NCBI GenBank assembly: GCA_050613775.1
Contig: JBODTK010000149.1
Coordinates: forward strand, 186,001 to 250,000
Reading direction: 5' to 3'
Origin: Neocallimastix sp. 'constans'
Lineage: Eukaryota
DNA: 64,000 bases
Made by a program: the position numbers and the translations under genes. Below, piece by piece: positions 38,998 to 60,754 of this stretch (position 1 is the first letter of the stretch; every line of letters starts with the position of its first letter). The notes under the pieces are model-generated. The model was not told where the DNA came from. It made no database searches and saw nothing but the letters and a program-made list of their open reading frames with translations.

Positions 38998-40910
38998 GGA
39001 TGTGAAGCATTTCGACATAATTTATGTATAATCAGCATAAATATTTGTACAATGAATATAAATTATGTAATACGCCACAACTTCAACGTATATTTTTATT
39101 TATTGTATTTTAGCATTAAAAAAATAAAATAAAAACTAAAAAAAATAATAAATAAAAGAATAAATAAGTTTTCTGTTAAGATTTCGTTTTATTTTTATTT
39201 ATTTTCAATTATTTAATTTTCATTTTATTATTATATTTTATTATTAAATATTTAATATTTTATTATTAAATTAATTAAATAATAAAATAAAATTTATTTT
39301 AATTTTAATTTTTTATTATTAATAAAATTTAAATATTGATATTGATATTAATATAATTTAAACTATATATATTCTAGTTAATTATTTTTATTTATAAATT
39401 TAGAGCTTGTTTAATTCTAATAAACATTTATACCATAAATCAATGATATCATTTTTATCACATTTTTTATCAATTAATTCCGATTCCTTTTTTTTTTGTA
39501 TTTTTTAATTAAATCATTGATTTCATCAGTTTTTGTTAATATTCTTTTTTTTTTTTTTTTTTTTTTTTTCCAAACTCCTTCGATTTTCCTTTTGCAATTA
39601 TTATAAGATAAAGATTCTTCTCTTTTTAAATGATAAATCAATTCATAGAAAGAAGGTTTTTTGTAAAACAATTTTTTTTAAGTAATTGTTAAAAAATTAT
39701 GAAGCATTATTTGTTATGTGGTTTATATTGTTATAATAATTCCAATATTGAATATCATATTTATATAAATAAGTCTTATTAAAATATTCCAAAAAATTTA
39801 AAAAATGGAAATAATTATATATTTGACATATAATTTTAATATAATTATAAATATCAAATATATATTCAGGATTTATAAAAGGAAAATTTGTAATAGCTTT
39901 ATAAAACAAATAAATTTTATGATTACTTTCAACTTCATTATAACATAATTTATTTTTTTGAACTTCTAACGATCTTTTATAATGCCATACACAATATTTA
40001 ATAGTAATATTAGGAAATATTTTAATGTCAGCATTGGATATACCTTTTTTAAAATCACAATGCAAAATTTTTGGTGTAACTATAATATTATTATAATATT
40101 TACTTGCATTCTTTTTTAATTCTTCAAATGACAGTTCATAGGTTGCTTGTTCTTTATTATTTAATATAGATAGTAATGTAGTGTAAAAACTTTTTATTTC
40201 TGGAGCATATATTCTTGTTATAAATACTTGATAACCAAATATTGGTGCAATATAAAATGTACCATCAGGAAACATATTTTCGTTGTATTTAATAAACAAT
40301 TCTGTTTGGAATGGTGATTGAAAAATTATAATATCAAAATTTTTGAATATCATAAAATTTTCACCTCTTTCGTTTATATAATATTCAGATTCATCTGGAA
40401 TTTCATTAAATTTTGATATATCAGGAGGTAGTTGTTTTTTTTTATATATCTTGATATTTGAGATTTAATTGAATTATATTCAGGGCATATCAATCCAATT
40501 TCTTCAGATATTTCATTATATATATGTTTTGGATTTATATCAAATGGGATTGAGGTTTTTCTAATTTCCTTTTTTCATTTTATGTTCTACTATTGATACA
40601 GATGCATCATATTCTTTTCCTGGATGAGTATGTTTGTTTTCATATTTTATTACTTTATTATTATCATTTAGAATAATGTATGATTTAACATTTTTTAACG
40701 GTTTTATATTCAGTACATTTGAATACTTTTGTACTATTCGTTATATACCATAAATTAAATTTATATTTTTTGTTTACAATGATTTGGTTTTTTTCTTTAT
40801 TAGTTTCACTTATTTCTAATTGATCATCCATTTATTATAAATATTTTAATTTAAAAGTTTTATTTTTTAATTTTTTTTTTTAATCTATTTTTTTTATCTT
40901 ATATTTTTAT

Positions 40911-41609: not shown

Positions 41610-41702
41610 TGCTCATGGCGGGGGTCGAACCCGCGATCTTCGCGTTGCATAAGAGGATCACCCTTATAAGCACGACGCCTTAAACCTCTAGGCTACACGA
41701 GC
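41610..41702 (-). tRNA. tRNA-Ile(UAU) with 19-nt intron
   Basis: GCTCGTGTAGCCTAGAGGTTTAAGGCGTCGTGCT-TAT-A[AGGGTGATCCTCTTATGCA]ACGCGAAGATCGCGGGTTCGACCCCCGCCATGAGCA. Cloverleaf closes, A and B boxes present, intron at canonical 37/38. Confidence 0.95.
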
Positions 41703-43046
41703 ACCAACGCTGCAAAATTGTAAGAAATTACTTATAAAATTAATTATAAATAATTTCTTAACTACAATGTTAAAAAGTAAACAGGTTGAATTTAACGAGG
41801 AATCAGGTTGATATATCTATATAATATAACTATATAGATATAAGTAAATTACTAAAATAAAAGAGTTATAAAGTTAAATTTGTTAATTTAACACTTAATT
41901 AAAACTAATAATTGGTTTGATATGATAAAAATTTTTATTTATTAATAAAAATATATAGTTATATTATAATAGGTTAACTATAACCTTACAAAGGACAAAA
42001 AGATAAATTTGAATTTTCTTTTTATACTTTGTAGGTTTGAGAATATTGATAATAATAATATAAAGTTGATAATAATAATATTTAGTATAAGAATATGTTT
42101 AATATAAATAAATTATATTTTTTAATCTAATATATTAGCTAATATATATAATATAATATTAAATTTAAATATTTAATATAGTAATTAATAATTAATAATT
42201 AATTAAATCAATATAACATAAATTAATACATAAACATTAATTTATGAATCAAGGATGACATGACCAAATGATTCATGTTAATAAATATTTTATTTATTAA
42301 TAATATTTAAGTTTAATATGATATCATTAGAATCAGTAGGCCTAAGCTGGTCCTAAGATGATCAAATAACTTATAATATTATAAAATAAATAAAATTTAA
42401 AGAATAATTAATGAATTATAAATTTTTATTAATTATTTTGTTTTTAATAATTTTAATTGAAATTAATTGAAATTGAAATTTAATTCAGTTGTAATTTCGA
42501 CAACGCCCTTCCACAAAAATCGGATTCCAGACGATTTTGTGTAACGTTACATAAAGAAATTATTATATTTATAAAATTGTATATTTTAAAAAATTTTTTT
42601 TTTTTTTTTTTTTTTTGAAGTAAAAAGGTCACATGAGTCCTTTAAAGAACACATTACAAGTGGCCATTTCATGGAAATTTCGAAATTGTCAAAATTTACT
42701 GAAATTAAAATTTTGTTATAAAATTAAATATCGAGAAATATAATGGTGTGAATTTTATTAAAAATTTCGTTGAAAAAATGTAAAATTGAAATTTTGAAAT
42801 TGAAATTGAAATTTCATCTTAATTTTATGCATTAAATTGAAAATTTTTAAATATAATGAAAATTTATAATTTAATGAATATAATAATGTAAAAATAAATA
42901 AAGTATTATTAAATTTCGATTTTTTAAAAATTTTTGAAATTTTGAAATGTAAAATTTTAAATTAACTAATTTAATTTTGAAATATTATTATTTAATATAC
43001 TATTTATAGCTTAAGTATAATAATTTTTTTTTTTTTTTTTTTTTTT

Positions 43047-46000
43047 TTAATTATAAGAAAGAGAAGTGAATTTTCTATTATTCTTTAAATATTCTTGATA
43101 TATTCTTTGATTCCTTGGATTATTTTCAACTTCATAAGAAGGCACCCAATTACTTGAACTTTTATATTTGTATCTAACTCTATATTCGTAGCAGTTTTTC
43201 TTGTAGTTTGTCCTAAATCCAGAAATTTCAATAATATCATTAATGGATTCCTTGTGCGAACTTCTATTTAAAAACTTTTGCGGAGTTGGGACATAAGGTT
43301 CCAATTCAGAGATATGAAAGATTGGATGATGTTTTGGAAAAGGTGACTTTTTAAGATCAATTTTATAATTATTATTCTCTAAAACATCGATTACCTTGTA
43401 AGGTCCATATTTGCAAGGAGCGAGTTTAGAACAATCTTCAATATTTAAGGAAGGAGGTGCTTGAATCCAAACCAAGTCACCTTCTTTTATTACAGGAGGT
43501 GGCATCCTTTTCTTATCCGCATAATTTTTATATAATTCTTTAGATCTTAATAAGACATCTTTAATATGATTAAAACTTGTACTTACATTTTTAATAAATT
43601 TACTATTAGTATCAACTTGGGGTAGTAAGAAATATTCGTCCATAGATGGATGAAATCCATAGTTAATAAAGAAAGGTGTTTCTTTTGTAGATTCATTGAC
43701 TGAATTATTATAAGCGAACTCTGCAAGATAGATCCAATTAATCCAATCGTCGTGATAATAAGATCTTGAATAAGCTCTTAAATACTGTTCAATAAAGGAG
43801 TTACATCTCTCAACTTGACCAACAGTCTCATGATGATCTGTTGTAGCTAATTTGGATTTAATATTAAGTAATTTCATGAATTCTTTCCAAAGTGCACTTG
43901 TAAACTGAGGACCTCTATCTGTATACATATCATAAGGAAGGCCATGTAATTTATAAACATTATTCATAAATGCTTTGGCAGTTTGTTTTGCATCAGGAAT
44001 TTGTTTGAAAGGTATTAAGTGAATCATTTTAGAGAAACGATCCACTACAACCATTATTACCGTATATCCCTTTGAATCCGGGAGGCCACATAAAAAGTCA
44101 ACTTCTATAGATTTCCAAGGTCTATCAGGTGTTTCCAACGGTTGTAGAAAGCCATATTTCCTATGTCTATTAATTTTGTTTCTTGCACAACATTCACAGG
44201 AATTGACAAATTTTATAACATCATCTTGCATTTTGGGCCACCAAAAGTTTCTTGTAATTAATTCAAGAGTTCTTTTAATTCCAAGATGACCAGCGGAAGG
44301 CTTTTCATGATATTTAGTTAAGATTTCTAATCTTAAAATTTCAGGAATATAAATTAAATTATTATATAATATAATATTATCCTTTATTTTGAACTTATTC
44401 ATTTTCCTAAAGGGTTTATAGGACATATCATTTTTAATATTCTGTGGGCTAAAATAGAGTCTAATATCATCAGCTGTGGCATCTGTTTTTGTAGCTTCTA
44501 TAATTCTTTCTAAAAGATCGCTAACAACACCAATAAAACATGGAACTTCCTTTACATTTTTTATGTCAAGAATATTTTCGGTTTTAGTTTCTTCATTATT
44601 TTTTATATAATCTGGTCTTCTTGAAAGAGAATCAGGTTTTCCATTATTGGAACCTTGTCTATAAATTAATTCAAAATTATATTCTTGGAAGAACATATGC
44701 CATCTATGTTGCCTTTGATTACCAATTTTACCACCAAGGGTATATAATAAGTTCCTATGATCAGTATAAACAGTTACTTTGTATTTCGCACCAAGTAATA
44801 AATGTCTCCATGCCAAAAAGGCTTCTCTAATAGCTAACAACTCCTTGTCTGTAATAGTATAATTAATTTCTGCACCTTGTAAGCTTCTTGAGAAATATGC
44901 AACTGGATGTAATTTATTATTATCATCCTTTTGTGATAAAACAGCACCAAGGGCAAAGTTACTTGCATCACATTCAACAATAAATGGTTTATTATTATCC
45001 GGATGGAATAAAACTGGAGAACTGGTTAATCTTTTCTTTAATTCTGAGAATGATTCTTCACATTTGTTATTCCAATTAAATTTAATATTTTTTCTGGTTA
45101 AATTATGTAAAGGTTTTGCAATTTTTGCAAAATCTTTAACAAATCTTCTATAATAATTGCAAAGACCTAAAAACCTCTGTACGTCCTTTAAGTTATTTGG
45201 TTGAGGCCAGTCTTTAATTGATTCTATTTTCTTCGGATCGGTAGTGACACCTTGACCTGATAATACATATCCAAGGAATTCAACTTTCTCTTTATCAAAT
45301 TCGCATTTTTCTAATTTTGCATATAAGTTATTATTAATTAATGCTTGCAAAACCTCCCTAACTTGTTTATGATGTTCTTTTAAATCTTTGGAGTAGATTA
45401 AAATATCGTCTAAATAAAGAATAACACTTTTTTCTAAATATGGTCTTAGTACCGAATTAATAAACGATTGAAAAGTAGCTGGTGCGTTTTTTAAACCAAA
45501 TGGCATAACTAAGTATTCATAGTGACCATATTTAGTTCTGAAAGCTGTCTTGTATTCATCCCCTTCCTTAATACGGATTAAATTATAGGCTGAACGTAAA
45601 TCTAATTTTGTAAAATACTTTGCTCCTTTAACCTTTTCAATAATTTCATTAATAAGAGGTATGGGGTACGAGTTTCTTATAGTAACAGCGTTTAACTTCC
45701 TATAGTCTACGCATAACCGAAGTGTACCATCTTTTTTCTTTTGGAATAGAACTGGATAACCTGCAGGTGATTCAGATGGTCTAATAAATCCTTTTTTTAG
45801 GTTTTCTTTTATATATTCTTTCAAAACTTTATTTTCCTCTTCGGTTAAGGGATAGATTGGACCATAGTGAAGGGAAGCGTCCTTCTCCAGCACTATTTTG
45901 CAGTCGGTTAAACGATGTGGGGGAAGTTTATCGGCTTCGGCTTTACTAAAAACAATAAATAGATCGCGATATTGAGGCGGAATATCTTCAATATTTGGAT

Positions 46001-46949
46001 CTTCATTGTCATTTTTATTAATTTCTTTATTTGATAAGAAGGAATATATTAAAAAATTGTAATTATAGTCATTGTTTAAATTAAAATTGTTTTTTAAATA
46101 TTTATTTTGTTTTTTGAAATAATATTTATATTTATTAATAAAATAATGATTTTTATTAAAAAATTTTTTATAATTAAATTTATCACAAAATTTTGAAAAT
46201 TTATTAAGGTTAAGGTTATTAAGTTTTTTATTAAAAAATTTTTTATTATAATTAAACTTCTGATCAAATTTTTTTAAATTTTTTGAAAAATTTTTATAAT
46301 TAAATTTTTTTATTGATTTATTAAAAAGTAAATAATTTTTTAAAATTTTATTTTTCATCGACTGTAGATATAAATTGTTTTTGCAATATTTATTAGGATT
46401 TTTGTTATTTTTATTTGAAAAATAATAATTTAAGTAAGAATATAATATATTCTTATCATAATTATAGTGAATTTTGAATTTTCGCATGAATTGATTACCA
46501 AAAAGTAGATCAGTTGGTATGCAATTTGTTATTAGAAATTTTTCATTGTAATTTTTAAAATAAAATTTTTTATTCTTTTGTATTTTTATTTGAAATTTTA
46601 GCCAAACGTACTGATCTATCTTAGTAGTAGAACCAGATATACCTTTGACTGAAATTTTATTTTTTAAATTATAAATTTTTAAATTTAGTTTTTGAACTAA
46701 ATTTTTTGTAATAAAATTACAAAATGATCCAGAATCTAGCATAGATTCAGATGTAATTTTTTGGTTATTTTTAATTTTTAATTTATTATTATTAATTGGT
46801 AGTCTTGTTGGAATGTAGCAATGGAATAAAAGAAAAGTTGAAGGTAGTTTTTGGGTTGTGATGTTATCAAATGAAGGAAAGTTATAATAAATTGTTTTTA
46901 CATTTTTTGATGAATTGGACTCCGAGTGAAGTCCTTCATTTAGTTTTTT
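43047..46949 (-). CDS. pol: Pol of element B (PR-RT-RNase H-IN-chromo-like), -1 frame relative to gag
   Basis: LDSGS protease; RT LRLCVDYRKLN...YLDD; RNase H CDASNFALGAVL; integrase HHCC, DDE and GPY motifs. Frame is open from the slippery site at 46949, upstream of the annotated Met at 46742. Confidence 0.95.
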   Translation of the reverse strand, partial: KKLNEGLHSESNSSKNVKTIYYNFPSFDNITTQKLPSTFLLFHCYIPTRLPINNNKLKIKNNQKITSESMLDSGSFCNFITKNLVQKLNLKIYNLKNKISVKGISGSTTKIDQYVWLKFQIKIQKNKKFYFKNYNEKFLITNCIPTDLLFGNQFMRKFKIHYNYDKNILYSYLNYYFSNKNNKNPNKYCKNNLYLQSMKNKILKNYLLFNKSIKKFNYKNFSKNLKKFDQKFNYNKKFFNKKLNNLNLNKFSKFCDKFNYKKFFNKNHYFINKYKYYFKKQNKYLKNNFNLNNDYNYNFLIYSFLSNKEINKNDNEDPNIEDIPPQYRDLFIVFSKAEADKLPPHRLTDCKIVLEKDASLHYGPIYPLTEEENKVLKEYIKENLKKGFIRPSESPAGYPVLFQKKKDGTLRLCVDYRKLNAVTIRNSYPIPLINEIIEKVKGAKYFTKLDLRSAYNLIRIKEGDEYKTAFRTKYGHYEYLVMPFGLKNAPATFQSFINSVLRPYLEKSVILYLDDILIYSKDLKEHHKQVREVLQALINNNLYAKLEKCEFDKEKVEFLGYVLSGQGVTTDPKKIESIKDWPQPNNLKDVQRFLGLCNYYRRFVKDFAKIAKPLHNLTRKNIKFNWNNKCEESFSELKKRLTSSPVLFHPDNNKPFIVECDASNFALGAVLSQKDDNNKLHPVAYFSRSLQGAEINYTITDKELLAIREAFLAWRHLLLGAKYKVTVYTDHRNLLYTLGGKIGNQRQHRWHMFFQEYNFELIYRQGSNNGKPDSLSRRPDYIKNNEETKTENILDIKNVKEVPCFIGVVSDLLERIIEATKTDATADDIRLYFSPQNIKNDMSYKPFRKMNKFKIKDNIILYNNLIYIPEILRLEILTKYHEKPSAGHLGIKRTLELITRNFWWPKMQDDVIKFVNSCECCARNKINRHRKYGFLQPLETPDRPWKSIEVDFLCGLPDSKGYTVIMVVVDRFSKMIHLIPFKQIPDAKQTAKAFMNNVYKLHGLPYDMYTDRGPQFTSALWKEFMKLLNIKSKLATTDHHETVGQVERCNSFIEQYLRAYSRSYYHDDWINWIYLAEFAYNNSVNESTKETPFFINYGFHPSMDEYFLLPQVDTNSKFIKNVSTSFNHIKDVLLRSKELYKNYADKKRMPPPVIKEGDLVWIQAPPSLNIEDCSKLAPCKYGPYKVIDVLENNNYKIDLKKSPFPKHHPIFHISELEPYVPTPQKFLNRSSHKESINDIIEISGFRTNYKKNCYEYRVRYKYKSSSNWVPSYEVENNPRNQRIYQEYLKNNRKFTSLSYN

Positions 46950-48016
46950 GAATTATTATTATTTGTACTATTATTACTGTTATTATTAATTTTATTAAAG
47001 TTATTATTATTATGGACTTTATTATAATTATTATTATAATATTTGTTATAATTATTATTATTATATTTATTATTATTGTTGTTGTTGTTATTGTGGACAT
47101 TAGAAGGCTTTTTCTTTAAATTTTTATTACCATTAGATTTTAATTGACCTTTAGATTTCAAGGAATTTTCGTAAAGAATACATCTAGTATAAATAGTACT
47201 AAGATCAGAAGGAAATTCATCCATTTTTTCTATTTCTTCCTGGAACCTTGGGTGCAATCCATTATAAAAGAATAAAACTAAAGCTTCTTCATTCCAATTC
47301 AAACATGTTGTAAGGGTTCGAAATTCATCAATATAATCATTAATTTTCCCAAATGTGTGAGAAATTTTTGCGAGTTGGATCATGGCTAATTTCTTACTGG
47401 CAACATTATTAAAAGCTTTCCTTAATTCTTTAATCAATTCTTCTAATGTTGCTGGACTTCTATCTTTATATTTGGCATAATACCAATTACGAGCACCATC
47501 TCTTAAGCGTGACTTAACATAATTAATTTTTACATCCATAGTAGATTCACAGTTAGGATAAGTCTTAAAAGTATCTTCACAGAGCTGACAAAAGAGATCG
47601 GTTTCCTTAGTATCCCCAGTGAAAAATCCAGGTTCTGGGACTTCTTGAAGTGTATTGGGAATAGTATTCCTCATTATTACATCATTGTCTGCCTCTCTTC
47701 TTGTTGATATAGAAGCGTTATCATCTTGATTTTGAGAAGCATTAACATTAGGAATAAAATCGAATTTCTGATTTAAAATGCTGGTAATAGAAGAAAGTTG
47801 TTTTATGATATTCTTGTTATCCCTATTTAAAGTAAAAAGTTTCTTTTGAAGATCTTCATTATATTTATTAAAATCTTCTCTTGATAAGAATGTAACTTCT
47901 GCATCTTTTGCCAGTTCAGAGACAGTAATCTGAGCGTCTGTTCTTAGCTTATTTACTTCCGACATAGGAGCAAAGTCAGGATAGGAGTTTGCCCACACGT
48001 TATTATAAAGGGACAT
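46940..48016 (-). CDS. gag: Gag of element B
   Basis: 358 aa with Ty3-type capsid motifs (PEPGFFTGD...SRLRDGARNWY...INDYIDEFRTL...FYNGL); Asn-rich C-terminus, no zinc knuckle. Confidence 0.93.
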   Translation of the reverse strand: MSLYNNVWANSYPDFAPMSEVNKLRTDAQITVSELAKDAEVTFLSREDFNKYNEDLQKKLFTLNRDNKNIIKQLSSITSILNQKFDFIPNVNASQNQDDNASISTRREADNDVIMRNTIPNTLQEVPEPGFFTGDTKETDLFCQLCEDTFKTYPNCESTMDVKINYVKSRLRDGARNWYYAKYKDRSPATLEELIKELRKAFNNVASKKLAMIQLAKISHTFGKINDYIDEFRTLTTCLNWNEEALVLFFYNGLHPRFQEEIEKMDEFPSDLSTIYTRCILYENSLKSKGQLKSNGNKNLKKKPSNVHNNNNNNNNKYNNNNYNKYYNNNYNKVHNNNNFNKINNNSNNSTNNNNSKN

Positions 48017-48262
48017 ATCAAGGTGATTCTCTTTTCCAAGGTAAGGTTATTGTTAAAAAGTAAACAGGTTGAATTTAACGAGGAATCAGGTTGATATATC
48101 TATATAATATAACTATATAGATATAAGTAAATTACTAAAATAAAAGAGTTATAAAGTTAAATTTGTTAATTTAACACTTAATTAAAACTAATAATTGGTT
48201 TGATATGATAAAAATTTTTATTTATTAATAAAAATATATAGTTATATTATAATAGGTTAACT

Positions 48263-48310
48263 ATAACCTTACAAAGGACAAAAAGATAAATTTGAATTTT
48301 CTTTTTATAC
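48263..48310 (-). promoter_or_regulatory. LTR TATA box and predicted self-primer of element B
   Basis: Minus strand TATAAAAAG (48309-48301) then GTAAGGTTAT (48272-48263), complementary to the PBS at 48050-48041. Confidence 0.75.
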
Positions 48311-49191
48311 TTTGTAGGTTTGAGAATATTGATAATAATAATATAAAGTTGATAATAATAATATTTAGTATAAGAATATGTTTAATATAAATAAATTATA
48401 TTTTTTAATCTAATATATTAGCTAATATATATAATATAATATTAAATTTAAATATTTAATATAGTAATTAATAATTAATAATTAATTAAATCAATATAAC
48501 ATAAATTAATACATAAACATTAATTTATGAATCAAGGATGACATGACCAAATGATTCATGTTAATAAATATTTTATTTATTAATAATATTTAAGTTTAAT
48601 ATGATATCATTAGAATCAGTAGGCCTAAGCTGGTCCTAAGATGATCAAATAACTTATAATATTATAAAATAAATAAAATTTAAAGAATAATTAATGAATT
48701 ATAAATTTTTATTAATTATTTTGTTTTTAATAATTTTAATTGAAATTAATTGAAATTGAAATTTAATTCAGTTGTAATTTCGACATACAATGTTGAAATT
48801 ATAACTGAATTGAAATCTCAATTTCAGTTATTCACATTTCAATATACATTTAATTAATAATTAATATAAACTCTTATTTAGTATTTAAAGAATTATCTTA
48901 GGCCTAATAATTCTGAAAATATTAATAAATAAGATTTATATTAATAATTTCAATTATTTACATATGACGTCACATGTATTTATTTATATTATGTTTATAT
49001 ATATGTTTATATCATATATATTAATTACTATTTTTAATTATTCAAATTAATTATACAAATTAAATTTATTTAATTATATTAAATATTTTAAACATATCGA
49101 TATTGTTATTATTTTAATATTTTATTAATATTCATTTTACTATATTATTATTATCTTATAATTAAATACTATTATTATGTAACTTACAAAG

Positions 49192-49244
49192 TATAAAAGA
49201 AAGATGTAAAAATCTATCTTTTATGTTCTTTGTAAGGTTATTGT
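49192..49244 (+). promoter_or_regulatory. LTR TATA box and predicted transcript 5' end (self-primer) of element C
   Basis: TATAAAAG at 49192; GTAAGGTTAT at 49232-49241 is complementary to the PBS at 49480-49489. Confidence 0.75.
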
Positions 49245-49513
49245 ATTTACAATAATTATATACTAATAATTCAATAAATAAATATTTTCATAAATCCTTC
49301 AAAGAAATTATTATTTAAAATATTCTTAGATATTAAGTGTTTAAATAACTTAACTATTTATCTTATATTATTTTTATATTATTATTAATTAATTATTGTT
49401 GGATTATTGATATATAATTCAACATATTAACCTAGTAACGTTATTAATCATAAAACTATTTTATATCTTAATTTTAACAATAACCTTACCCTAGTTTTGG
49501 TTACTACTTTAAT

Positions 49514-50590
49514 ATGTCTTTTTACAATAATGTATGGGCTGACATTGCTCCAATGTCAGAAGTTAATAAATTAAGGTCTGACGCCCAAGTTACTGTATCC
49601 GAATTGGCTTCTTCTGTTAATGATAGTTTTTTATTAAAAGAAGATTTTAATGAATATAACAAGGACTTACAAAAAAAACTTTATACACTTTACAAAGATA
49701 ATAAAAATATTATTAATCAATTATCTAATTTAACGAAAATTTTAGATGAAAAGTTAAATATAAATATTGCTACAAATGATATTCCTTCTACTAGTCGAAC
49801 ACAAGAGGATAATGTATCTACCATTACTAGACGTGATGATGACAATGATGTTATTATGAGGAATGCTTTTTCAAACCGTTTACAACAAGTTCCTGAACCT
49901 GGATTTTTCTCTGGAGATACTAAAGAAACTGATCTATTCTGTCAACTTTGTGAAGATACCTTTAAAACATATCCAAATTCAGAAGCTACAGAAGATATCA
50001 AAATTAACTTTATTAAATCCCGTTTAAGAGATGGCGCTCGTAATTGGTATCTAGCTACGTACAAGGATACTAACCCAAAAACTCTTTCTGAATTGACTAC
50101 TGAATTAAGAAAAGCATTTTCCAACGTTGCAAGCAAAAAATTAGCTAAGATTCAATTAATAAAATTGAAACATAACTATGGGAAAATAAATGATTATATT
50201 GAACAATTTAGAACTCTTTCGAATGGTCTTGGATTCAGTGAAGAAGCCTTAGTTTTAATTTTCTATAATGGGTTACATTCAAAATTCCAAGAAGTAATTG
50301 AAGAAATGGAAGAATTCCCTGTTGATCTTGGTACTATTTATACTAAATGTATTTTACTTGAAAATACATTAAAAACAAAAAATCAAATAAAATCAAATAA
50401 TGGTAATTCAAAACTTTCTAGAAGCAGTAATAATAAACATTCAAAACACTTTAGTACCCATATTAATCATGATAAAAATTATAATTTTAATAACAATTAT
50501 AATAACAAAAGTAATTATAATAATAATTACAATAATAACAATTATAATAGTAATAAAACCAGTAGCAATAATAATAAAACAAAAAACTAA
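49514..50590 (+). CDS. gag: Gag of element C
   Basis: 358 aa, clearly homologous to B Gag. Confidence 0.93.
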   Translation: MSFYNNVWADIAPMSEVNKLRSDAQVTVSELASSVNDSFLLKEDFNEYNKDLQKKLYTLYKDNKNIINQLSNLTKILDEKLNINIATNDIPSTSRTQEDNVSTITRRDDDNDVIMRNAFSNRLQQVPEPGFFSGDTKETDLFCQLCEDTFKTYPNSEATEDIKINFIKSRLRDGARNWYLATYKDTNPKTLSELTTELRKAFSNVASKKLAKIQLIKLKHNYGKINDYIEQFRTLSNGLGFSEEALVLIFYNGLHSKFQEVIEEMEEFPVDLGTIYTKCILLENTLKTKNQIKSNNGNSKLSRSSNNKHSKHFSTHINHDKNYNFNNNYNNKSNYNNNYNNNNYNSNKTSSNNNKTKN

Positions 50591-53500
50591 ACAATGGACT
50601 TCAACAGAAGTCCAATATAATAAAAAACACAAGAATTCTTCATTATAATTTTCCTACATTTAATAATGTAGTAAATAAAAAATTACCTTCAACTTTCCTT
50701 TTATTTGATACATATATTCCAACATCATTTTCAAATAATATAAAAAATATTAAAAATGATAATAATAAATTAAAAACTGAATCTATGTTAGATTCAGGCT
50801 CCTTCTGTAATTTTATTACAGAAGATTTAGTAAAAACTTTAAACTTGAAAAAATATAATTTAAAATCAAAAATTTTAGTCAAAGGAATTTCTGGTGATAC
50901 AACCCAGATAAAGAATTATGTTTGGCTAAAATTTCAAATTAAAATTAATGGAAATAAAAAAGTTTATTTTAAAAATTTTAAAGAAAAATTTTTAATTTCG
51001 AATTGTATTCCAACAAAATTACTTTTTGGAAATCAATTTATGAGGAAGTTTCATATTCATTACGATTATAATAAAAACTTCCTATATTCTTATTTAGATT
51101 CTCACTTTTATAACAAAATTAATAAAAATGCTAATAAAAATCCACAATATTATTCTTGGTTTAATTCAGTGATAAAAAGATTTTTAAAAAATTATTTTTT
51201 AAAACATAAATTCATAAAAAAATTTAATTATACAAAAAATTCAAAAAATTTCAAAAATTTTAATCAAAATAAATTAAATTTTAAACTTAATAAATATAAA
51301 AAATTTCTTCATAAAAAATTTAATTTTTTAACCAATAAAACATTTTTTAAATTAAAAAACAATCACCAAAATAAAAAATATAAAATTAATAATAAATTTA
51401 ACTATAATTATTTAATTTATTCATTTTTAACAAATAAAGAAAATTATGAAGAAGATATTGAAGATATAAAAATCGAAAATATTCCGCTTCAATATCGAGA
51501 TTTGGCTGTTGTATTTAGTAAGAAAGAAGCAGATAAACTACCACCACATCGTTTAACTGACTGTAAAATAGTTTTAGAAAAGGATGCTTCTCTTCATTAT
51601 GGACCTATCTACCCATTATCTGAAGAAGAAAATAAAGTTTTAAAAGAATATATAGAAGAAAATTTAAAGAAGGGATTTATTAGACCTTCTGAATCTCCAG
51701 CTGGTTATCCTGTCTTATTTCAAAAAAAGAAAGATGGTTCTTTAAGATTGTGTGTGGATTACAAAAAGTTAAACGCTGTTACCATTAGAAATTCATATCC
51801 TCTTCCACTTATTAATGATATCATTGAAAAGGTTAAAAGTGCAAAATATTTCACAAAATTAGATCTAAGATCTGCCTATAACCTAATTCGTATAAAAGAG
51901 GGGGATGAATATAAAACAGCTTTTCGAACTAAATATGGTCATTACGAATATCTCGTAATGCCTTTTGGGTTGAAAAATGCCCCAGCCACTTTCCAATCAT
52001 TTATTAATTCTGTACTCAGACCTTATTTGGAAAAAAGTGTTATTTTATATTTGGATGATATTTTAATTTATTCTGAGGATTTGGAAGAACATCACAAACA
52101 AGTAAGAAGTGTATTACAAACTTTAATTAATAATAATTTATACGCAAAATTAGAAAAATGTGAATTCGATAAAGAAAAAGTTGAATTCCTAGGTTACATT
52201 TTATCTGGTGATGGTGTATCTACTGACCCAAAGAAAATTAAATCTATAGAAGAGTGGCCAACTCCGAAAAATATTAAAGAAGTACAACGATTTTTAGGCT
52301 TATGTAATTACTATAGGAGATTCGTAAAAAATTTTGCAAAAATAGCTAAGCCTCTCCATAATTTAACAAGAAAAAATACAAAATTTATTTGGGATACAAA
52401 TTGTGAAAATTCATTTAAATTATTAAAAAGTAAATTAACTACTTCTCCAGTACTGCATCACCCAGATGTAACTAAACCATTCATAGTAGAATGTGATGCA
52501 AGTAACTATGCTATAGGTGCTGTTTTATCTCAGAAAGATGAAAATAATAAATTACATCCTGTTGCTTACTTTTCAAGAAGTTTACAAGGCTCCGAAATAA
52601 ATTATACCATTACAGAAAAAGAGTTATTAGCTATTAGAGATTCTTTCTTAACTTGGCGACATCTTTTACTTGGTGCAAAACATAAAATTACTGTCTATAC
52701 TGACCATAGAAATTTAATCTATACTTTAGGAGGAAAAGTTGGTAATCAAAGACAGCATAGATGGCACTTATTCTTTCAGGAATATGATTTCCAACTTATA
52801 TATAGACAAGGAACTAAAAATGGGAAACCAGATAGTCTTTCAAGAAGACCTGACTATATGAAGAATAACGAAGATATTAAACCAGAAAATATATTAGATA
52901 TTAAAAATGTAAAAGAAGTTCCCTGTTTTGTAGGAATTATGAGTAATTTACTAGAAAAAATTATTGATGCTATTAAAGAAGATGCTACTGCTGAAGATAT
53001 TAAATTATACTTTAGTGAAAACAATATTAAAAATAATTATGCTTATAAACCATTTAGGAAAATGGAAAGATTTAAAATAAAAGATAATATTATATTATAT
53101 AACAATTTAATTTATATTCCTGAATCACTTAGATTAGAAATTTTAGAAAAATATCATGAAAAACCCACTTCTGGACATCTTGGTATAAGAAGAACTCTAG
53201 AACTAATTACAAGAAACTTTTGGTGGCCAAAAATACATGAAGATGTTACAAGTTATGTTAATTCTTGTGAATGTTGTGCAAGAAACAAGGTTAATAGACA
53301 TAGAAAATATGGTCTTTTACAACCTTTAGATACTCCTGATAGACCTTGGAAGTCTATCGAAATTGATTTTCTATGTGGTCTTCCTTATTCTAAAGGATAC
53401 ACCGTTATTATGGTAGTTGTTGATCGTTTCTCTAAGATGATTCATTTAATTCCGTTTAAACAAATACCTGATGCCAAACAAACTGCCAAAGCTTTCATTA

Positions 53501-54417
53501 CAAATATATTTAAACTACACGGATTGCCTTGTGATATGTATACAGATAGAGGATCTCAATTTACAAGTGCTCTTTGGAAAGAAGTAATGGAATATTTAAA
53601 CATTAAATCAAAAATCGCTACAACTGACCATCATGAAACAGTTGGTCAAGTTGAAAGGTGTAATTCTTTTATTGAACAATATTTAAGAGCTTACTCAAGA
53701 TCATATTATCATGATGATTGGATTGAATGGATTCACCTTGCTGAATTTGTTTATAATAACTCCATTAATGAATCTACAAAAGAAACACCCTTCTTTATTA
53801 ATTATTGTTTTCATCCATCTATGGATGAATTTTTCTTATTACCTGATATTGATACTAATAATAAAATTATTAAGGACTTAAGCATGAACTTTAATCATAT
53901 TAAAGATGTTTTATTAAGGTCAAAAGAACTATATAAAATACACGCAGATAAAAAGAGAATGCCACCTCCAATATTTAAAGAAAATGATTTAGTTTGGATA
54001 CAAGCTCCTCCATCACTAAATATCGAAGATAGTTCAAAGTTAGCTCCTTGTAAATATGGACCATATAAAGTAATAGATGTTCTGAATAATCATAATTATA
54101 AAATAGATATTAAAAGGTCACCTTTTCCAAAACATCATCCTATATTCCATGTTTCGGAGTTAGAACCTTTTATTCCAACACCTCAAAAGTTTTTAAAAAG
54201 AAGAACTCATGATGAATCTGTTAATGATATAATTGAAATCTCAGGATTTAGAACTAATTATAAAAAGAATCAATATGAATACAGAATCAGGTATAAATAT
54301 AGAACTGCTTACAATTGGGTTCCTTCATACGAAGTTGAAAATAACCCCCGAAATCAAAATATTTATTTACAATATTTACAAAATGGAAGAAAACCTATTT
54401 CAATAGCTTATAACTAA
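50581..54417 (+). CDS. pol: Pol of element C (PR-RT-RNase H-IN-chromo-like), -1 frame relative to gag
   Basis: Same motifs as B. The -1 frame is open from 50578 through the Met at 50785. Confidence 0.95.
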   Translation, partial: KKLNNGLQQKSNIIKNTRILHYNFPTFNNVVNKKLPSTFLLFDTYIPTSFSNNIKNIKNDNNKLKTESMLDSGSFCNFITEDLVKTLNLKKYNLKSKILVKGISGDTTQIKNYVWLKFQIKINGNKKVYFKNFKEKFLISNCIPTKLLFGNQFMRKFHIHYDYNKNFLYSYLDSHFYNKINKNANKNPQYYSWFNSVIKRFLKNYFLKHKFIKKFNYTKNSKNFKNFNQNKLNFKLNKYKKFLHKKFNFLTNKTFFKLKNNHQNKKYKINNKFNYNYLIYSFLTNKENYEEDIEDIKIENIPLQYRDLAVVFSKKEADKLPPHRLTDCKIVLEKDASLHYGPIYPLSEEENKVLKEYIEENLKKGFIRPSESPAGYPVLFQKKKDGSLRLCVDYKKLNAVTIRNSYPLPLINDIIEKVKSAKYFTKLDLRSAYNLIRIKEGDEYKTAFRTKYGHYEYLVMPFGLKNAPATFQSFINSVLRPYLEKSVILYLDDILIYSEDLEEHHKQVRSVLQTLINNNLYAKLEKCEFDKEKVEFLGYILSGDGVSTDPKKIKSIEEWPTPKNIKEVQRFLGLCNYYRRFVKNFAKIAKPLHNLTRKNTKFIWDTNCENSFKLLKSKLTTSPVLHHPDVTKPFIVECDASNYAIGAVLSQKDENNKLHPVAYFSRSLQGSEINYTITEKELLAIRDSFLTWRHLLLGAKHKITVYTDHRNLIYTLGGKVGNQRQHRWHLFFQEYDFQLIYRQGTKNGKPDSLSRRPDYMKNNEDIKPENILDIKNVKEVPCFVGIMSNLLEKIIDAIKEDATAEDIKLYFSENNIKNNYAYKPFRKMERFKIKDNIILYNNLIYIPESLRLEILEKYHEKPTSGHLGIRRTLELITRNFWWPKIHEDVTSYVNSCECCARNKVNRHRKYGLLQPLDTPDRPWKSIEIDFLCGLPYSKGYTVIMVVVDRFSKMIHLIPFKQIPDAKQTAKAFITNIFKLHGLPCDMYTDRGSQFTSALWKEVMEYLNIKSKIATTDHHETVGQVERCNSFIEQYLRAYSRSYYHDDWIEWIHLAEFVYNNSINESTKETPFFINYCFHPSMDEFFLLPDIDTNNKIIKDLSMNFNHIKDVLLRSKELYKIHADKKRMPPPIFKENDLVWIQAPPSLNIEDSSKLAPCKYGPYKVIDVLNNHNYKIDIKRSPFPKHHPIFHVSELEPFIPTPQKFLKRRTHDESVNDIIEISGFRTNYKKNQYEYRIRYKYRTAYNWVPSYEVENNPRNQNIYLQYLQNGRKPISIAYN

Positions 54418-54435
54418 AATGATAATAATAATATT

Positions 54436-54481
<46 letters not shown>

Positions 54482-57169
54482 GAAATTTTATTTTTTATTA
54501 TTATTAATTCGTTTTTAAATTTTATTTTATTATTATCAATTTTTCAGTCAAATTTCAATTTCAAAATTTCGAAATTTTCAAAATTTTCAAAATTCAAAAA
54601 CATAGCTATGTTACACTTACAACTATCAATTTATAATCAAATTTTATTCATAAATTCATTAATTATTATAATTTTCAATTTTTTTAAAGTTAATGCATAA
54701 AATTAAAAAGTTAATTGAAATTAAAATTTCAAAATTTCAATTTCAAAAATTTTTAATCAAAAACATTTAAAAATGGTACCATCATATTCTTAAACATCAA
54801 TTTTTATAACAAAATTTTAATTTTATTAAATTTTAGAAATTTCAAAATTTCAATGAAATGGTCACTTATAAAGGGTTTCCTTTTAAAATTTAAAAGGACT
54901 CAAGTGGCCTTCCTCCTTTATAAATTAAAAAAATTTTAATTTAAGAAATTTCAAAAAATTTTTAACAAAAAATTTAGTCCTCCTTATCGTTACACAAAAA
55001 TCGTCTTGAATCCGATTTTTATAGGAGGGCATTGTTGAAATTATAACTGAATTGAAATCTCAATTTCAGTTATTCACATTTCAATATACATTTAATTAAT
55101 AATTAATATAAACTCTTATTTAGTATTTAAAGAATTATCTTAGGCCTAATAATTCTGAAAATATTAATAAATAAGATTTATATTAATAATTTCAATTATT
55201 TACATATGACGTCACATGTATTTATTTATATTATGTTTATATATATGTTTATATCATATATATTAATTACTATTTTTAATTATTCAAATTAATTATACAA
55301 ATTAAATTTATTTAATTATATTAAATATTTTAAACATATCGATATTGTTATTATTTTAATATTTTATTAATATTCATTTTACTATATTATTATTATCTTA
55401 TAATTAAATACTATTATTATGTAACTTACAAAGTATAAAAGAAAGATGTAAAAATCTATCTTTTATGTTCTTTGTAAGGTTATTGTATTTACAATAATTA
55501 TATACTAATAATTCAATAAATAAATATTTTCATAAATCCTTCAAAGAAATTATTATTTAAAATATTCTTAGATATTAAGTGTTTAAATAACTTAACTATT
55601 TATCTTATATTATTTTTATATTATTATTAATTAATTATTGTTGGATTATTGATATATAATTCAACATATTAACCTAGTAACGTTATTAATCATAAAACTA
55701 TTTTATATCTTAATTTTAACATACAAATTAACATTAATTATTACTAATTAACATTAATTTGAGAAAATAAAATTAAATATAATTAAATAAATATAAAATA
55801 ATATAAATAAATAATTATACTTAACTTAAATATAAGATAGAGTTTATTATAGAAAGTTTATAATAAACAATAACACAAAAGGAATAAAAGACACAAATAT
55901 TTATAAAATATGTTTTATTTAAAAGGTTTTGGTTTATTAATTAATTAGTTTATTTGAATTATTATTTATTATAAAAATTCTAAAATAATAACTCTTGATT
56001 TCTCGAAGAGAACTCAAGAGAATCAAATATATATAAATTAATAATTAAATATTATTGGTTAAAATAAATACAATAATTTAATGTATTAAATTAATGTATT
56101 AAATAAGAAAGATAGATAAATTTTATAATAAAATAATAAATTTATCTAAGTTTCTTACATTGCTCCCTTTACTTAATGAATTTGTATAAATTCATTATTA
56201 TATAGGAAGTAGTATATTTAAAATAAAAATTATAATTAACCAAAAAAAATATAAATTTAAATAATTTATTGAAAGTTTTGCTAACCTTAACTTTTTAACA
56301 TCTAGAGAAAAGATTAGAGGAAAAACTCTAGACGAATCAATATTAAGTAAAACCAATTAACTTGGGAAAACCTTAATATTGTTTTCTAACTAATATATAA
56401 ATATAAGTGAATAAATAATTATAAATTAAATAAAATAAATATAATTATTAAGTGTATAAATAAATATAAAATTAAATAAAATGACTATATTATTAAATGA
56501 ATAAATAAATATTAAATTAAATAAATTATAATAACTAAGAAATGTAAATAAATTATTAATAAATTTATTTGTATTTCTTACATTGCTCCTTTTCATTTGA
56601 ATTGTTCAATGAAAGAAGAACAATTTAAAAAATAATAAATTAAGAAATATTAAAAAGAAATAAAATTTAAATAAAATTAAAATAAATATTTAATTGCAAT
56701 TTCAATTTAAAAAAATGAAATTTAAATTTTGAATTAAAATTTATTTTAAATAAATAATTAAATAAACAATAATTTATAAATTTATATTGTATATTATATA
56801 TATTTTGTATTAATAAATAAATAAATAATAATAATAATAATTAATTTTACAATATATATATATTATATATTATTCATTAAATGAATGAAAATAATAATAA
56901 TAATTTGAATTATATATTATATATTATATATTTTTCATATTTATTAAATAAATAATAACATTTTATTATTTATATTATATATATGTTATATTATTCATTA
57001 GATAAATAAATAAGTAATAATCTAAATTATACATATGAATTATTTATTAAATAAATAAATAATAATATTTTATAATTTTTTATATTAAATTTTATATGTA
57101 TATTTTGAAATATGTATTAAATAAATAATAATAATATTTTATAATTTTTTATATTACATATATATATAT

Positions 57170-57224
<55 letters not shown>

Positions 57225-57528
57225 GATATAACGAGATATAGCTTTTGCCGATATCTGTTTTAACAAAGGGCAATTAGTAATTAACAATTATATTATTAAT
57301 AATAATATATTATTTCAATTACGTAGAAGTGAATTTCAATTTTTATATCACTTCAGCCCTAGTGTTAATATCTATATGTGATCATAGAACATTGTAATTA
57401 TATATTTAAATATATCTTATAATTTTTTAAAATTTTATTTTCGTTCGTATGATCAATATTAAAAACTTTTTATTATTATTATTTATTATTATTATTACTT
57501 TATTTATCATAATTATAATTTTATTTAC

Positions 57529-57598
<70 letters not shown>

Positions 57599-57782
57599 TA
57601 ATTTATTTATTTTTTATTTTTATTTATTTTAAAGAAAAGAAAACTGAACAACTTATCTTTTAAATTATTAATTTATTTTATTTATTTTTTGTTTTTTGTT
57701 TGTTTATTTGTTAGTTTTGTTTTGTTTCCTGCTTTGTTGCTTTGTTTGTTGCTTATTTTACTTTATTTTATTTTTTTATTTT

Positions 57783-57818
<36 letters not shown>

Positions 57819-59672
57819 GAAATATATATATAATGTATATAATGTTATATATAAGAACAATTATATAATATTAAAATATAATATAAATATAATATTATAA
57901 TAGATAAACATGATATATAAAATAAAATAAAGTAAAATAGTTAGTATGTAATATTGTTAATTTTTATGAAATTTATAAGACTTATTTTTAAAAGTAAATA
58001 GGCAGAGTAAACAGAATAAGTGTTGTCATATTATTATAAAGTTATAATGTTTAATATATATAATAATAAAGAATTGTTAGTCAATGTAATAATAAATTAA
58101 ACAAAATAAATAATATATATATGACATAAACAAACATAAACAATGAAAAGAAAAATAAAAAATAAACAAAAAAAAAAATTATAAATTTAAATTGAGAGAA
58201 AGAAAAAATTTCGTAAATAATATAAAATGAATTTATTTAATTTAATTATTCCATTATAATTATAATTATTATTTTTTGTTATATTCATATTAAATTATTT
58301 ATAAAATATTTTCTTCCTAAAAAGAAGAGTTATTATTGTAAGAAATTACTTATAAAATTAATTATAAATAATTTCTTAACTACAAATTAACATTAATTAT
58401 TACTAATTAACATTAATTTGAGAAAATAAAATTAAATATAATTAAATAAATATAAAATAATATAAATAAATAATTATACTTAACTTAAATATAAGATAGA
58501 GTTTATTATAGAAAGTTTATAATAAACAATAACACAAAAGGAATAAAAGACACAAATATTTATAAAATATGTTTTATTTAAAAGGTTTTGGTTTATTAAT
58601 TAATTAGTTTATTTGAATTATTATTTATTATAAAAATTCTAAAATAATAACTCTTGATTTCTCGAAGAGAACTCAAGAGAATCAAATATATATAAATTAA
58701 TAATTAAATATTATTGGTTAAAATAAATACAATAATTTAATGTATTAAATTAATGTATTAAATAAGAAAGATAGATAAATTTTATAATAAAATAATAAAT
58801 TTATCTAAGTTTCTTACAAAAATAATACAGAATGAACAAATAATACTAATTGTGCTAGAATAATATAAATTATTCTAACCTTATAGATTATTCTATTCTA
58901 TATAATTGGAACTTTCCAATATTCTTCAAATATTACTAAATAGAAATCTTAAGTTAATAAATCACTAATTAACTTATAATTCCTTTTTGAATTATCGATC
59001 CGATTCCATTATAATGTATTAAAAATCTTTAGCCAAGAATATTGTCCTTGCCCACTTAATATATTAATATTATATTTCTTTTGTATTATGTTATATTGAA
59101 AATAATCAAATCTATTTAATTAGTTATTAAAATTTTCGTTATCAATTTAAATTTATTTTTAATTACTAAATTTAACTAAACCACAATAAAATATTCTGTA
59201 TAATCTCTTTATTTTTATTTTATATATATTAGTATTAAACTATTATTAAATAATTAATAATTCAATAATATATAACTACTATTTATAACAATAATATTAT
59301 TAACTAAAATAATAATTCAATTTCAATTTAAATGTTTTATTTATAAAAATAATTAGTAATTAGTTTATTAAAAAAATAGTTAGGCTTTACAAATTTTAAT
59401 TTGATAAAAAAAATATAAATACATGTAATTTTAGTGAAATAAAATATAATCAATAACTTTCTTTTTATTAAATAAATAATTATATTATTATTTTTCTTTT
59501 ATAAATTTAAATAAATAAATATTGATTTTAAAACAAATTATTTTTTTTTTATTGTAATTTTATTATTTGTGTTAATTATTATTATATTCCTAAAATTATA
59601 TGAACCATACCAAAAAAAAGAGGATTTTAAATATAAAAAACCTAAATCAATTAAAATGCTTTTTTTTTTTTT

Positions 59673-60754
59673 TGTTGAAATTATAACTGAATTGAAGTTT
59701 CAATTTCAGTTATTTACATTTCAATAATTAAAAATATTATTTATTTAATTATATATTATTATATAATTAATAATTAATATAAATTCTTGTTTAATATTTA
59801 AAGGGTTATCTTAGGCCTAATAATTCTGAGAATATTAATAAATAAGGTTTATATTAATAATTAATTTCAATACTACATTTGATATAAAACAAATATGTGT
59901 AGTAACATATTTGTATATTTAATAATAATTATTAAATATTAAATTTATATCTTTTTGATAATAATTATTTTATTTTATTTTATTTCAATATATATTATTA
60001 TAATTATAATAATTATAATACTTTAATTCATATAAAATTTATATAGTTCTATATATTAGAATATGTATTTAATATATTACCTATTTCTTATAAATTAAAT
60101 TATTTATATTAGAAATAGAGAACTCTCTTGTAAAATTTGAGGAATTAGAATTATTATTTAATTGTACGAATATTATAATTTTATTAATAAAATTTACTAA
60201 ACTACCATTATTTAAAACCCACTGCTTATAAATTATTGCACATAAAAGTCCCGCATATCACATTTGACGTCACGTGTATTTTATTTTTATTATGTTTTAT
60301 ATATTTTACAACATATCTATATTTAATTTCAATTATATAATTAAATTTATCTTTATATTTTATTAATATTTATATTACTACATTATTACTATTTACTATC
60401 TTATAATTAAATATTATTATTATGTAACTTAACAAAGTATAAAAGAAAGATGTAAAAATCTATCTTTTATGTTCTTTGTAAGGTTATTGTAAAATTACCT
60501 TAATAGTAATATATTATAGATATTTTATTATTAAATAAAATCAATAAATTTAAAATCAAATTAATTTGATAATTCTAATTATCAAAGTTTATTATAAATA
60601 AATTTTTATTAAACTAAACATTAAAATATTTATTATTATTATTATATATCTATATAGTATATTACTATATAGATATATCGACTTACTGAATATTTTTAAT
60701 AAAACATATTATTTTACTTAAATTTAAACTATAAATTATATCAAAATCTTAACA
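59673..60754 (+). mobile_element. Solo LTR related to elements C/B
   Basis: Starts TGTTGAAATTATAACTGAATTGAA like C and contains the same TATA...GTAAGGTTATTG block. Ends CTTAACA and is flanked by TTTTT on both sides (TSD in a poly-T tract). About 390 bp longer than the C LTR. Confidence 0.88.

What the first reader, a model, noticed from the sequence alone, without database searches (positions are those of the whole stretch)
41610..58823. tRNA-gene-anchored nest of three young LTR retroelements: candidate two-position Pol III targeting system in a gut fungus
Seen: a tRNA-Ile(UAU) gene is followed upstream by element A (TSD at -12 to -16 from the mature tRNA 5' end). Elements B and C are both inserted at -61 to -65. 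All three have LTR pairs that look identical or nearly so, and intact TSDs, so three insertions hit a 50-bp window recently. Known: S. cerevisiae Ty3 inserts about 16-17 bp upstream of tRNA coding sequences via TFIIIB; Dictyostelium DGLT-A and TRE5-A use fixed upstream distances; self-priming Tf1 targets Pol II promoters instead. Inference: self-priming Gypsy families here may have evolved tRNA targeting with two landing positions, one at the Pol III start site and one just upstream of the TFIIIB footprint. I am not aware of this being described in Neocallimastigomycota but could not search.
Basis: partly seen in the sequence, partly recalled or inferred. Interest (0 to 1): 0.88.

Follow-up and report, generated by a model that had tools for sequence, protein, structure and literature searches.

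The report
Retrotransposons stacked before a tRNA gene
Three young jumping genes sit stacked just in front of one tRNA gene in what is likely a gut fungus, two of them at exactly the same five bases, which likely reflects aiming at the tRNA transcription machinery as yeast Ty3 does, although only this one site could be examined.

Summary
Observation confirmed. tRNA-Ile(UAU) lies at 41702-41610 (-). Element A (3.1 kb, non-coding) has its TSD at -12..-16. B and C are intact Gypsy elements in opposite orientations with three TACAA copies at -61..-65. All three LTR pairs are 100% identical. B and C sit 49 bp inside A's LTR, so these are not three independent votes for tRNA targeting.

B and C have a 10-nt self-primer, a predicted -1 gag-pol frameshift and an integrase chromodomain that has lost two of three cage residues (27 of 27 motif-matched clade members). 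Their clade includes a Pecoramyces protein. Self-priming is not shown for A.

The best reading is Pol III-anchored integration (about 0.6). The genome-wide test could not be run. An older B/C-clade solo LTR lies at -861..-865, at neither position.

Each element of the idea has precedent: Tj1 (self-priming, upstream of tRNA genes), D. lacteum DGLT-A (55-65 bp), DGLT-A plus TRE5 (two distances in one genome), and Ty3's cage-less chromodomain binding Brf1. New would be the host lineage and this combination. My searches found no report in gut fungi, but the main paper on their LTR elements was not readable.

The parts
41610..41702 (-). tRNA-Ile(UAU) gene with intron, A and B boxes and a T-run after it; mature +1 = 41702
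41714..41718 (+). TSD of A (AAAAT), -12..-16; second copy 58819-58823
41719..41767 (+). First 49 bp of A's 5' LTR; the last 5 bp (41763-41767, TACAA, -61..-65) are the target of B and C
41768..42502 (-). B 3' LTR, 735 bp, identical to the 5' LTR; purine tract just before it
43047..46952 (-). B pol (PR-RT-RNaseH-IN-SH3-diverged chromodomain), open, catalytic motifs present
46940..48016 (-). B gag (358 aa from the first ATG), ending on an AAAAAAC slippery site followed by a hairpin (predicted -1 frameshift)
48051..48785 (-). B 5' LTR with a 10-nt self-primer at LTR position 514, complementary to the PBS that follows the LTR
48786..48790 (+). Middle TACAA copy between B and C
48791..49479 (+). 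C 5' LTR, 689 bp, self-primer at LTR position 442
49514..50590 (+). C gag (358 aa), same slippery site and hairpin; 65% identical to B gag
50578..54417 (+). C pol, open; 79% identical to B pol (RT 94%, IN 84%)
55033..55721 (+). C 3' LTR, identical to the 5' LTR
55722..55726 (+). Third TACAA copy
55727..56159 (+). Rest of A's 5' LTR
56160..58336 (+). A internal region: 2177 bp, 11% GC, longest stop-free stretch 88 codons and low-complexity; PBS not starting with TGG; purine tract before the 3' LTR
58337..58818 (+). A 3' LTR, 482 bp, 9-bp terminal inverted repeat; its own TACAA site is unoccupied
59673..60754 (+). D: older solo LTR of the B/C clade (1082 bp, 577 identities and 92 mismatches to C's LTR plus large gaps), between T-runs, -861..-865 from the tRNA before A inserted

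Best explanation
A non-coding LTR element (A) sits 16 bp upstream of a tRNA-Ile gene and two intact Gypsy elements (B, C) sit in tandem at one 5-bp site 61-65 bp upstream, likely because the integrases involved dock on the Pol III machinery of the tRNA gene at two fixed distances. Shown: the positions, the three TACAA copies, that A came before B and C, and intact gag and pol. Inferred from sequence: self-primed reverse transcription and a -1 gag-pol frameshift in B and C. Inferred order: A landed at the Pol III start region like Ty3, mobilised by an unknown partner. C then landed at -61..-65, and B landed at the same distance from the tRNA, between the gene and C, pushing C outward. Inferred and untested: the cage-less chromodomain at the end of the B/C integrase no longer reads H3K9me and instead serves as a protein-contact module for TFIIIB or a neighbouring factor, as Ty3's does, placing the insertion just upstream of the TFIIIB footprint.
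For: Three exact TACAA copies require two separate integrations at the same base; a dimeric cDNA would give no middle TSD (reasoning). The order A, C, B keeps each new insertion at a constant distance from the tRNA. The identical TACAA site in A's tRNA-distal LTR is empty (weak, n=1). A's distance matches Ty3 and DGLT-A (about 15 bp; PMC5006619), and B/C's matches D. lacteum DGLT-A (63-64, n=4; 55-65, n=2; same call). All four LTR insertions identified with confidence in 64 kb lie within 0.9 kb upstream of the only tRNA gene. The B/C clade (34 of 123 integrase cores) is monophyletic with FastTree support 1.0. In 27 of 27 motif-matched members (28 examined) cage positions 1 and 3 are non-aromatic and W is Y/F, against aromatic at all three in 25 of 25 matched relatives (32 examined, chosen as canonical). 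The profile aligns to canonical chromodomains at E 3e-4 (reversed control 0.32), and the model (pLDDT 83.5) matches chromo and chromoshadow domains over residues 89-148 at Z 6.3-7.2, rmsd 1.5-2.5 for the best rows. Ty3's chromodomain also lacks the cage and binds Brf1 (PMC8632968). Skipper-2 has a group II chromodomain and is tRNA-associated (PMC5006619). In other runs, A's LTR mostly continues as A past position 49 (20 contigs in X1) and B's U5 end has mixed flanks (7 contigs, agreement 0.61), which argues against B being bound to A's sequence.
Against: One locus only. No genome is held and six collection scans gave nothing; one search gave 9 of 9 chance matches. B and C sit inside A's LTR, so they may be responding to A. 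D, a member of the same clade, lies at -861..-865 in a T-run. No intervening element that would have displaced it was found. One X3 consensus of an A-like left junction (3 contigs, 30 letters) is AT-rich with no tRNA end in view (the tRNA could lie on the other side). Many group II chromodomain elements are simply spread on chromosomes (PMC5006619 section 13), so loss of the cage does not imply tRNA targeting. The chromodomain calls are modest: hhalign probability 39%, no Pfam Chromo hit, Z under 8, and the folding alignment included 35 relatives from outside the clade. A's integrase is unknown.
Confidence: 0.6

Rival explanations
1. A may be tRNA-targeted, but B and C are drawn to a feature of A's LTR end or to LTR ends in general (a bound protein or bendable site). 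The tRNA gene is then incidental for them and there is no second Pol III position.
For: The site is 45-49 bp inside A's LTR, and the 49 bp to its left stay in place for both insertions. D shows that the clade inserts elsewhere.
Against: The same site in A's other LTR is empty. Most A LTR contigs run on uninterrupted and B's flanks are mixed. D's target is a T-run unlike TACAA. Hitting the same base twice by regional preference alone has odds of about 1e-3.
Confidence: 0.22
2. The B/C clade targets a broad window upstream of Pol III genes, Ty1-like and set by nucleosomes. -63 is merely the strongest peak and D at -863 is another position in the same window.
For: D is within 0.9 kb of the same tRNA gene, exactly 800 bp beyond the B/C site. 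Ty1, Ty2 and Ty4 use a window of about 1 kb (PMC5911963 Table 1).
Against: Two of three clade insertions share one base, sharper than a 1-kb window predicts. The window-type precedents listed are copia elements.
Confidence: 0.12
3. No targeting: an LTR-rich genome with many tRNA genes gives such a nest by chance and tolerance, or the tandem is an assembly artefact.
For: The families are multi-copy. Contig depth relative to the single junction in X3 is about 19-22 for tRNA-Ile, 43 for B and 57 for an A variant (depth is not a copy number). The window was selected for this feature. The A|B and B|C junctions have no independent support.
Against: Base-exact triple TSD between two different families in opposite orientations, with perfect LTR pairs. 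The tRNA-A junction is seen in run X3.
Confidence: 0.06

Closest known systems
Tj1 of Schizosaccharomyces japonicus (Tf1/sushi chromovirus)
   Same: Self-priming anatomy, chromodomain, 5-bp TSD, insertion upstream of tRNA genes (13 of 17 inserts; PMC4600332)
   Different: Tj1 lands 5-11 bp from mature tRNA, in one fixed orientation, and uses stop-codon readthrough. B and C are at -61..-65, in both orientations, with a predicted -1 frameshift.
DGLT-A of dictyostelids (D. lacteum DGLT-A.1/.2 at 63-64 and 55-65 bp; D. discoideum and D. purpureum at about 13-33 bp)
   Same: Ty3/Gypsy LTR elements at both distances seen here (PMC5006619 Table 1)
   Different: DGLT-A is defined by lack of a chromodomain; the D. 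discoideum element has one ORF and a TGG-type PBS. The two LTR distances are listed for different species.
Ty3 of Saccharomyces cerevisiae
   Same: A's position (about 15-16 bp). A cage-less integrase chromodomain, which in Ty3 binds Brf1 (PMC8632968). Best PDB sequence hit of B's integrase (7q5b, E 5e-47).
   Different: Ty3 is tRNA-primed with a +1 frameshift (recalled) and lands at the start site, not at -65. B's sequence match to Ty3 stops before the chromodomain.
Skipper-2 of dictyostelids
   Same: Chromovirus with first and third cage residues diverged, tRNA-associated
   Different: Inserts downstream of tRNA genes; most have a polypyrimidine tract in place of a PBS and no LTR complement to it
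DGLT-A plus TRE5 in D. discoideum
   Same: Two fixed upstream distances in one genome (13-33 and 40-54 bp)
   Different: TRE5 is a non-LTR element; here both positions are used by LTR elements

Membership tests
Ty3/Gypsy (Metaviridae), B and C | LTRs TG..CA, gag, pol in the order PR-RT-RH-IN | tested here: met
   (protease hits below Pfam cut-off but LDSG motif present)
Tf1/sushi chromoviruses, B and C | LTR segment complementary to the PBS (self-primer), PBS without TGG | tested here: met
   10-nt exact complement in both; the motif is kept in all five B/C/D LTRs, 0 expected by chance. Priming itself not assayed.
Tf1/sushi chromoviruses, B and C | Chromodomain after the GPY/F (SH3) module | tested here: met
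   Diverged, group II-like. No Pfam Chromo hit, so support is moderate.
Tf1/sushi chromoviruses, B and C | Phylogenetic placement with Tf1, MAGGY and sushi | tested here: inconclusive
   The tree held only search hits, was midpoint-rooted and had no named reference elements. Most hits outside the clade carry PF00385.
Pol III-targeted LTR elements (Ty3, Tj1, DGLT-A) | Genome-wide enrichment at a fixed distance from Pol III genes | not testable with these tools
   No genome; scans empty; loose ends limited to 30 letters
Pol III-targeted LTR elements (Ty3, Tj1, DGLT-A) | Repeated use of one distance at a locus | tested here: inconclusive
   2 of 3 B/C-clade insertions at -61..-65, 1 at -861..-865; A n=1
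Pol III-targeted LTR elements (Ty3, Tj1, DGLT-A) | Integrase contact with TFIIIB | not tested
   No host TFIIIB sequence in hand; no complex prediction was run
Tj1 family | In-frame stop between gag and pol; one orientation; -5..-11 | tested here: not met
   pol in the -1 frame behind AAAAAAC; B and C in opposite orientations; -61..-65
DGLT-A family | No chromodomain; single ORF and TGG-type PBS in the prototype | tested here: not met
Skipper-2 | Insertion downstream of tRNA genes; no self-primer in the LTR | tested here: not met
Non-autonomous LTR element (TRIM/LARD-like, terms recalled), A | LTR pair, TSD, purine tract, no coding region | tested here: met
Self-priming Gypsy, A | Self-primer in the LTR; Gypsy-type enzymes or a known partner | tested here: inconclusive
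   No exact complement of 7 nt or more to the PBS start; best duplex -5.1 kcal/mol in the LTR part scanned, against about -12 for B and C; no partner found

The most novel reading that the evidence does not exclude
A gut-fungal clade of self-priming chromoviruses has independently turned its chromodomain from a heterochromatin reader into a TFIIIB-docking module that lands on the upstream face of TFIIIB. The -63 site would then be the mirror image of the Ty3-type -14 site about the TBP site. The midpoint, -38.5, falls at the centre of a TATA..TATA stretch at 41733-41748 (read; weak in DNA this AT-rich). Two LTR lineages would share one Pol III promoter from opposite sides, and intact B and C would offer a native safe-harbour integration vector for anaerobic fungi.
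Probability: 0.25. Interest if true: 0.75.

Novelty: new variant of a known kind. Interest (0 to 1): 0.5.

Why it matters
If confirmed, this adds Neocallimastigomycota to the short list of hosts with Pol III-targeted LTR elements. It would also add a third case, after Ty3 and Skipper-2, in which a cage-less chromodomain goes with tRNA-gene targeting, making the idea that cage loss redirects integration testable in a clade of 34 sampled members. Those include three that lack the domain and close relatives that keep the cage. B and C look transposition-competent, so they are candidates for targeted integration in anaerobic fungi. It is not a new kind of system.

Tried and rejected
Whole genome: none held.

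Searches for other copies with flanks: viral contigs by protein and by DNA pattern, and prokaryote genomes, found none. The one metagenome scan gave 9 loci, all 9 chance matches with no BLAST hit to the elements and 32-68% GC.

Laying runs on A's 3' LTR region gave no data, so A's right-hand junctions are untested. One search gave loose ends of at most 30 letters, often mixed, too short to see a tRNA 61-65 bp away; 48 loose-end rows and 761 pieces were not shown.

The single-sequence fold failed (pLDDT 35.5). The Atlas search of the C-terminal 77 aa gave unnamed top hits at 0.91 and Chromo clusters at 0.88-0.89, a lead only. No fold-search row aligned the chromodomain part to Ty3's chromodomain; the Ty3 rows by VIA-align covered the SH3 part.

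A second Pol III gene near D: Rfam finds only one RNA gene in the window; ARAGORN at a relaxed threshold gave 54 calls, judged noise. An 800-bp element between the tRNA and D: no convincing TG..CA with TSD was found.

The 'TFIIB repeat' ORF at 26726-27610 as a BRF1 gene was rejected: it reads as a cyclin. Host-gene searches named no organism.

Mirror-image Ty3 integration on both sides of a TATA box is recalled only; two searches found no passage for it. Earlier-finding look-ups by place or sequence returned nothing; word look-ups were empty.
Full report
1. Observation. The only RNA gene Rfam finds in the window is a tRNA at 41702-41610 on the minus strand, anticodon UAU followed by an intron, with A and B boxes and a T-run. 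Upstream of it, in order: AAAAT (-12..-16); 49 bp of LTR A ending in TACAA (-61..-65); element B (41768-48785, minus); TACAA; element C (48791-55721, plus); TACAA; the rest of A to 58818; AAAAT. The LTR pairs are identical at 482/482, 735/735 and 689/689. B and C interrupt A's LTR, so A is older than both, and their target is A's DNA. A further, older solo LTR of the B/C clade (D, 59673-60754) lies at -861..-865 once A is removed. One contig of run X3 spans the tRNA-A junction without differences. No listed piece (32 of 793 shown) spans A|B.

2. What the elements are. B (7018 bp) and C (6931 bp) carry open gag and pol in Gypsy order with catalytic motifs present. Gag stops right after AAAAAAC, pol is in the -1 frame and a hairpin follows, so a -1 frameshift is predicted. 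The PBS does not begin with TGG. Its first 10 nt are the exact complement of a motif in the LTR, and that motif with its upstream segment is kept in all five B, C and D LTRs although B and C LTRs align at only about 69%. This is the self-priming anatomy of the Tf1/sushi group (bioRxiv 2022.12.06.519325, passages and section 28 part 1). A (3141 bp) has LTRs, a TSD and a purine tract but no coding region; its priming and its autonomous partner are unknown.

3. Host and clade. The window is 17% GC. The integrase search gave 31 clusters at 61-99% identity, none with a Pfam Chromo hit, then a drop to 48% or less with most hits carrying PF00385 (120 of 432 listed). One cluster holds a Pecoramyces ruminantium protein, 84% identical over the integrase core. 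The best holders of the DNA include many faecal metagenomes of animals. A gut fungus is therefore likely. B, C, the 31 clusters and the Pecoramyces protein form one clade of 34 among 123 sequences, support 1.0, midpoint-rooted.

4. The integrase tail. Behind the SH3 module, 31 of 34 clade members keep a conserved domain of about 60 aa that aligns by eye and by profile to canonical chromodomains (E 3e-4, probability 39%, reversed control E 0.32). Cage positions 1 and 3 are non-aromatic in 27 of 27 motif-matched members (28 examined). A model built on a 62-sequence alignment, 35 of them from outside the clade, has pLDDT 83.5. Its residues 89-148 match chromo and chromoshadow domains at Z 6.3-7.7, middling values. 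Foldseek's top hit is the Ty3 intasome (E 3e-4). This is a group II-like chromodomain. Ty3's chromodomain likewise lacks the cage and contacts Brf1 and target DNA (PMC8632968, passages). Skipper-2 has a group II domain and sits downstream of tRNA genes, while many group II elements show no such preference (PMC5006619, section 13).

5. Mechanism. Three TACAA copies mean two integrations at one base, so something fixes the position. The simplest anchor that stays put is the tRNA gene: A at the start region, then C, then B between the gene and C. I put this at 0.6, with the chromodomain-TFIIIB contact as an untested step. The main rival is a hot spot made by A's LTR (0.22). Against it, the same site in A's other LTR is empty, A LTR contigs in other runs mostly continue as A, and B's flanks are mixed. 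A broad Ty1-like window would also cover D (0.12). Chance or artefact is unlikely (0.06; one search gives about 1e-8 and 1e-3 under simple models that ignore selection of the window and dependence between events). The decisive genome-wide test was not possible: no genome, empty scans, chance matches only in the metagenome scan, and loose ends of at most 30 letters.

6. Comparison. Tj1 is a self-priming chromovirus with 13 of 17 inserts 5-11 bp upstream of tRNA genes (PMC4600332, parts 1-2 of 4), so self-priming plus tRNA targeting is known. Table 1 of PMC5006619 lists D. lacteum DGLT-A.1 at 63-64 bp (n=4) and DGLT-A.2 at 55-65 bp (n=2), and D. purpureum DGLT-A.1 at 13-16 bp (passages), so both distances are known for Gypsy elements. 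D. discoideum has two upstream distances in one genome (PMC5911963, sections 10-12). B and C work like these if the best reading holds, but are not members of Tj1, DGLT-A or Skipper-2: a defining feature of each is not met.

7. Novelty. Six searches combining gut-fungus or early-diverging-fungus terms with retrotransposon or tRNA terms listed no paper on tRNA targeting in these fungi, judged from listings. A search for tandem same-site insertions listed two papers on DNA transposons. Navaratna et al. 2024 on anaerobic-fungal LTR elements was seen only as a reference-list entry (PMC13728883); it and its supplements may bear on novelty. PMC6673722 (passages) added nothing on a second site. Two unchecked notes of this scan report a small non-coding LTR element stacked 16 bp upstream of a tRNA-Leu gene in another probable gut fungus and a tRNA-targeting clade in another early-diverging fungus. 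They agree with the reading for A but are leads, not support.

8. Verdict. A real, clean nest and a plausible new variant of Pol III-targeted LTR integration, resting on one locus with one same-clade exception. Interest 0.5. The boldest reading (a cage-less chromodomain docking on the upstream face of TFIIIB, mirror to the Ty3 position) has about 0.25 probability and would merit 0.75.

Noticed in passing
window 59673-60754: Older B/C-clade solo LTR (D) in a T-run. Its TSD position is exactly 800 bp beyond the B/C site in the pre-A state; unexplained, may be chance.
   Followed up: partly
window 20655-21404: 750-bp stretch with an 11-bp TG..CA terminal inverted repeat flanked by ATAAT. Possible solo LTR of another family about 20 kb from the tRNA; no other copy in the window. 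If real, it is an LTR far from any tRNA gene here.
   Followed up: partly
window 56458-56674: Inside A, a degenerate second copy of the LTR end plus PBS region (69% to 56025-56264).
   Followed up: no
window 39697-40464 (-): MULE transposase fragment about 1.1 kb downstream of the tRNA gene.
   Followed up: no
window 26726-27610 (-): Cyclin-like exon (Cyclin_N, TFIIB repeat); not BRF1-like.
   Followed up: partly
window 15468-17057 (+): 529-codon ORF with no Pfam hit and only 2 homologues (40-46% identity) among 7994 candidates scored.
   Followed up: partly
proteins P0066, P0073, P0075, P0096; P0056, P0067, P0077 and others; P0029-P0031: The lineages next to the B/C clade have a differently diverged cage-less chromodomain or end right after the SH3 module: repeated change or loss of the domain. 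P0073 is a Pecoramyces (Orpsp1) protein.
   Followed up: partly
window 41719-41767, runs X3 and X15: A high-depth variant of A's LTR start with 7 differences in 49 bp: A has an abundant sister family.
   Followed up: no
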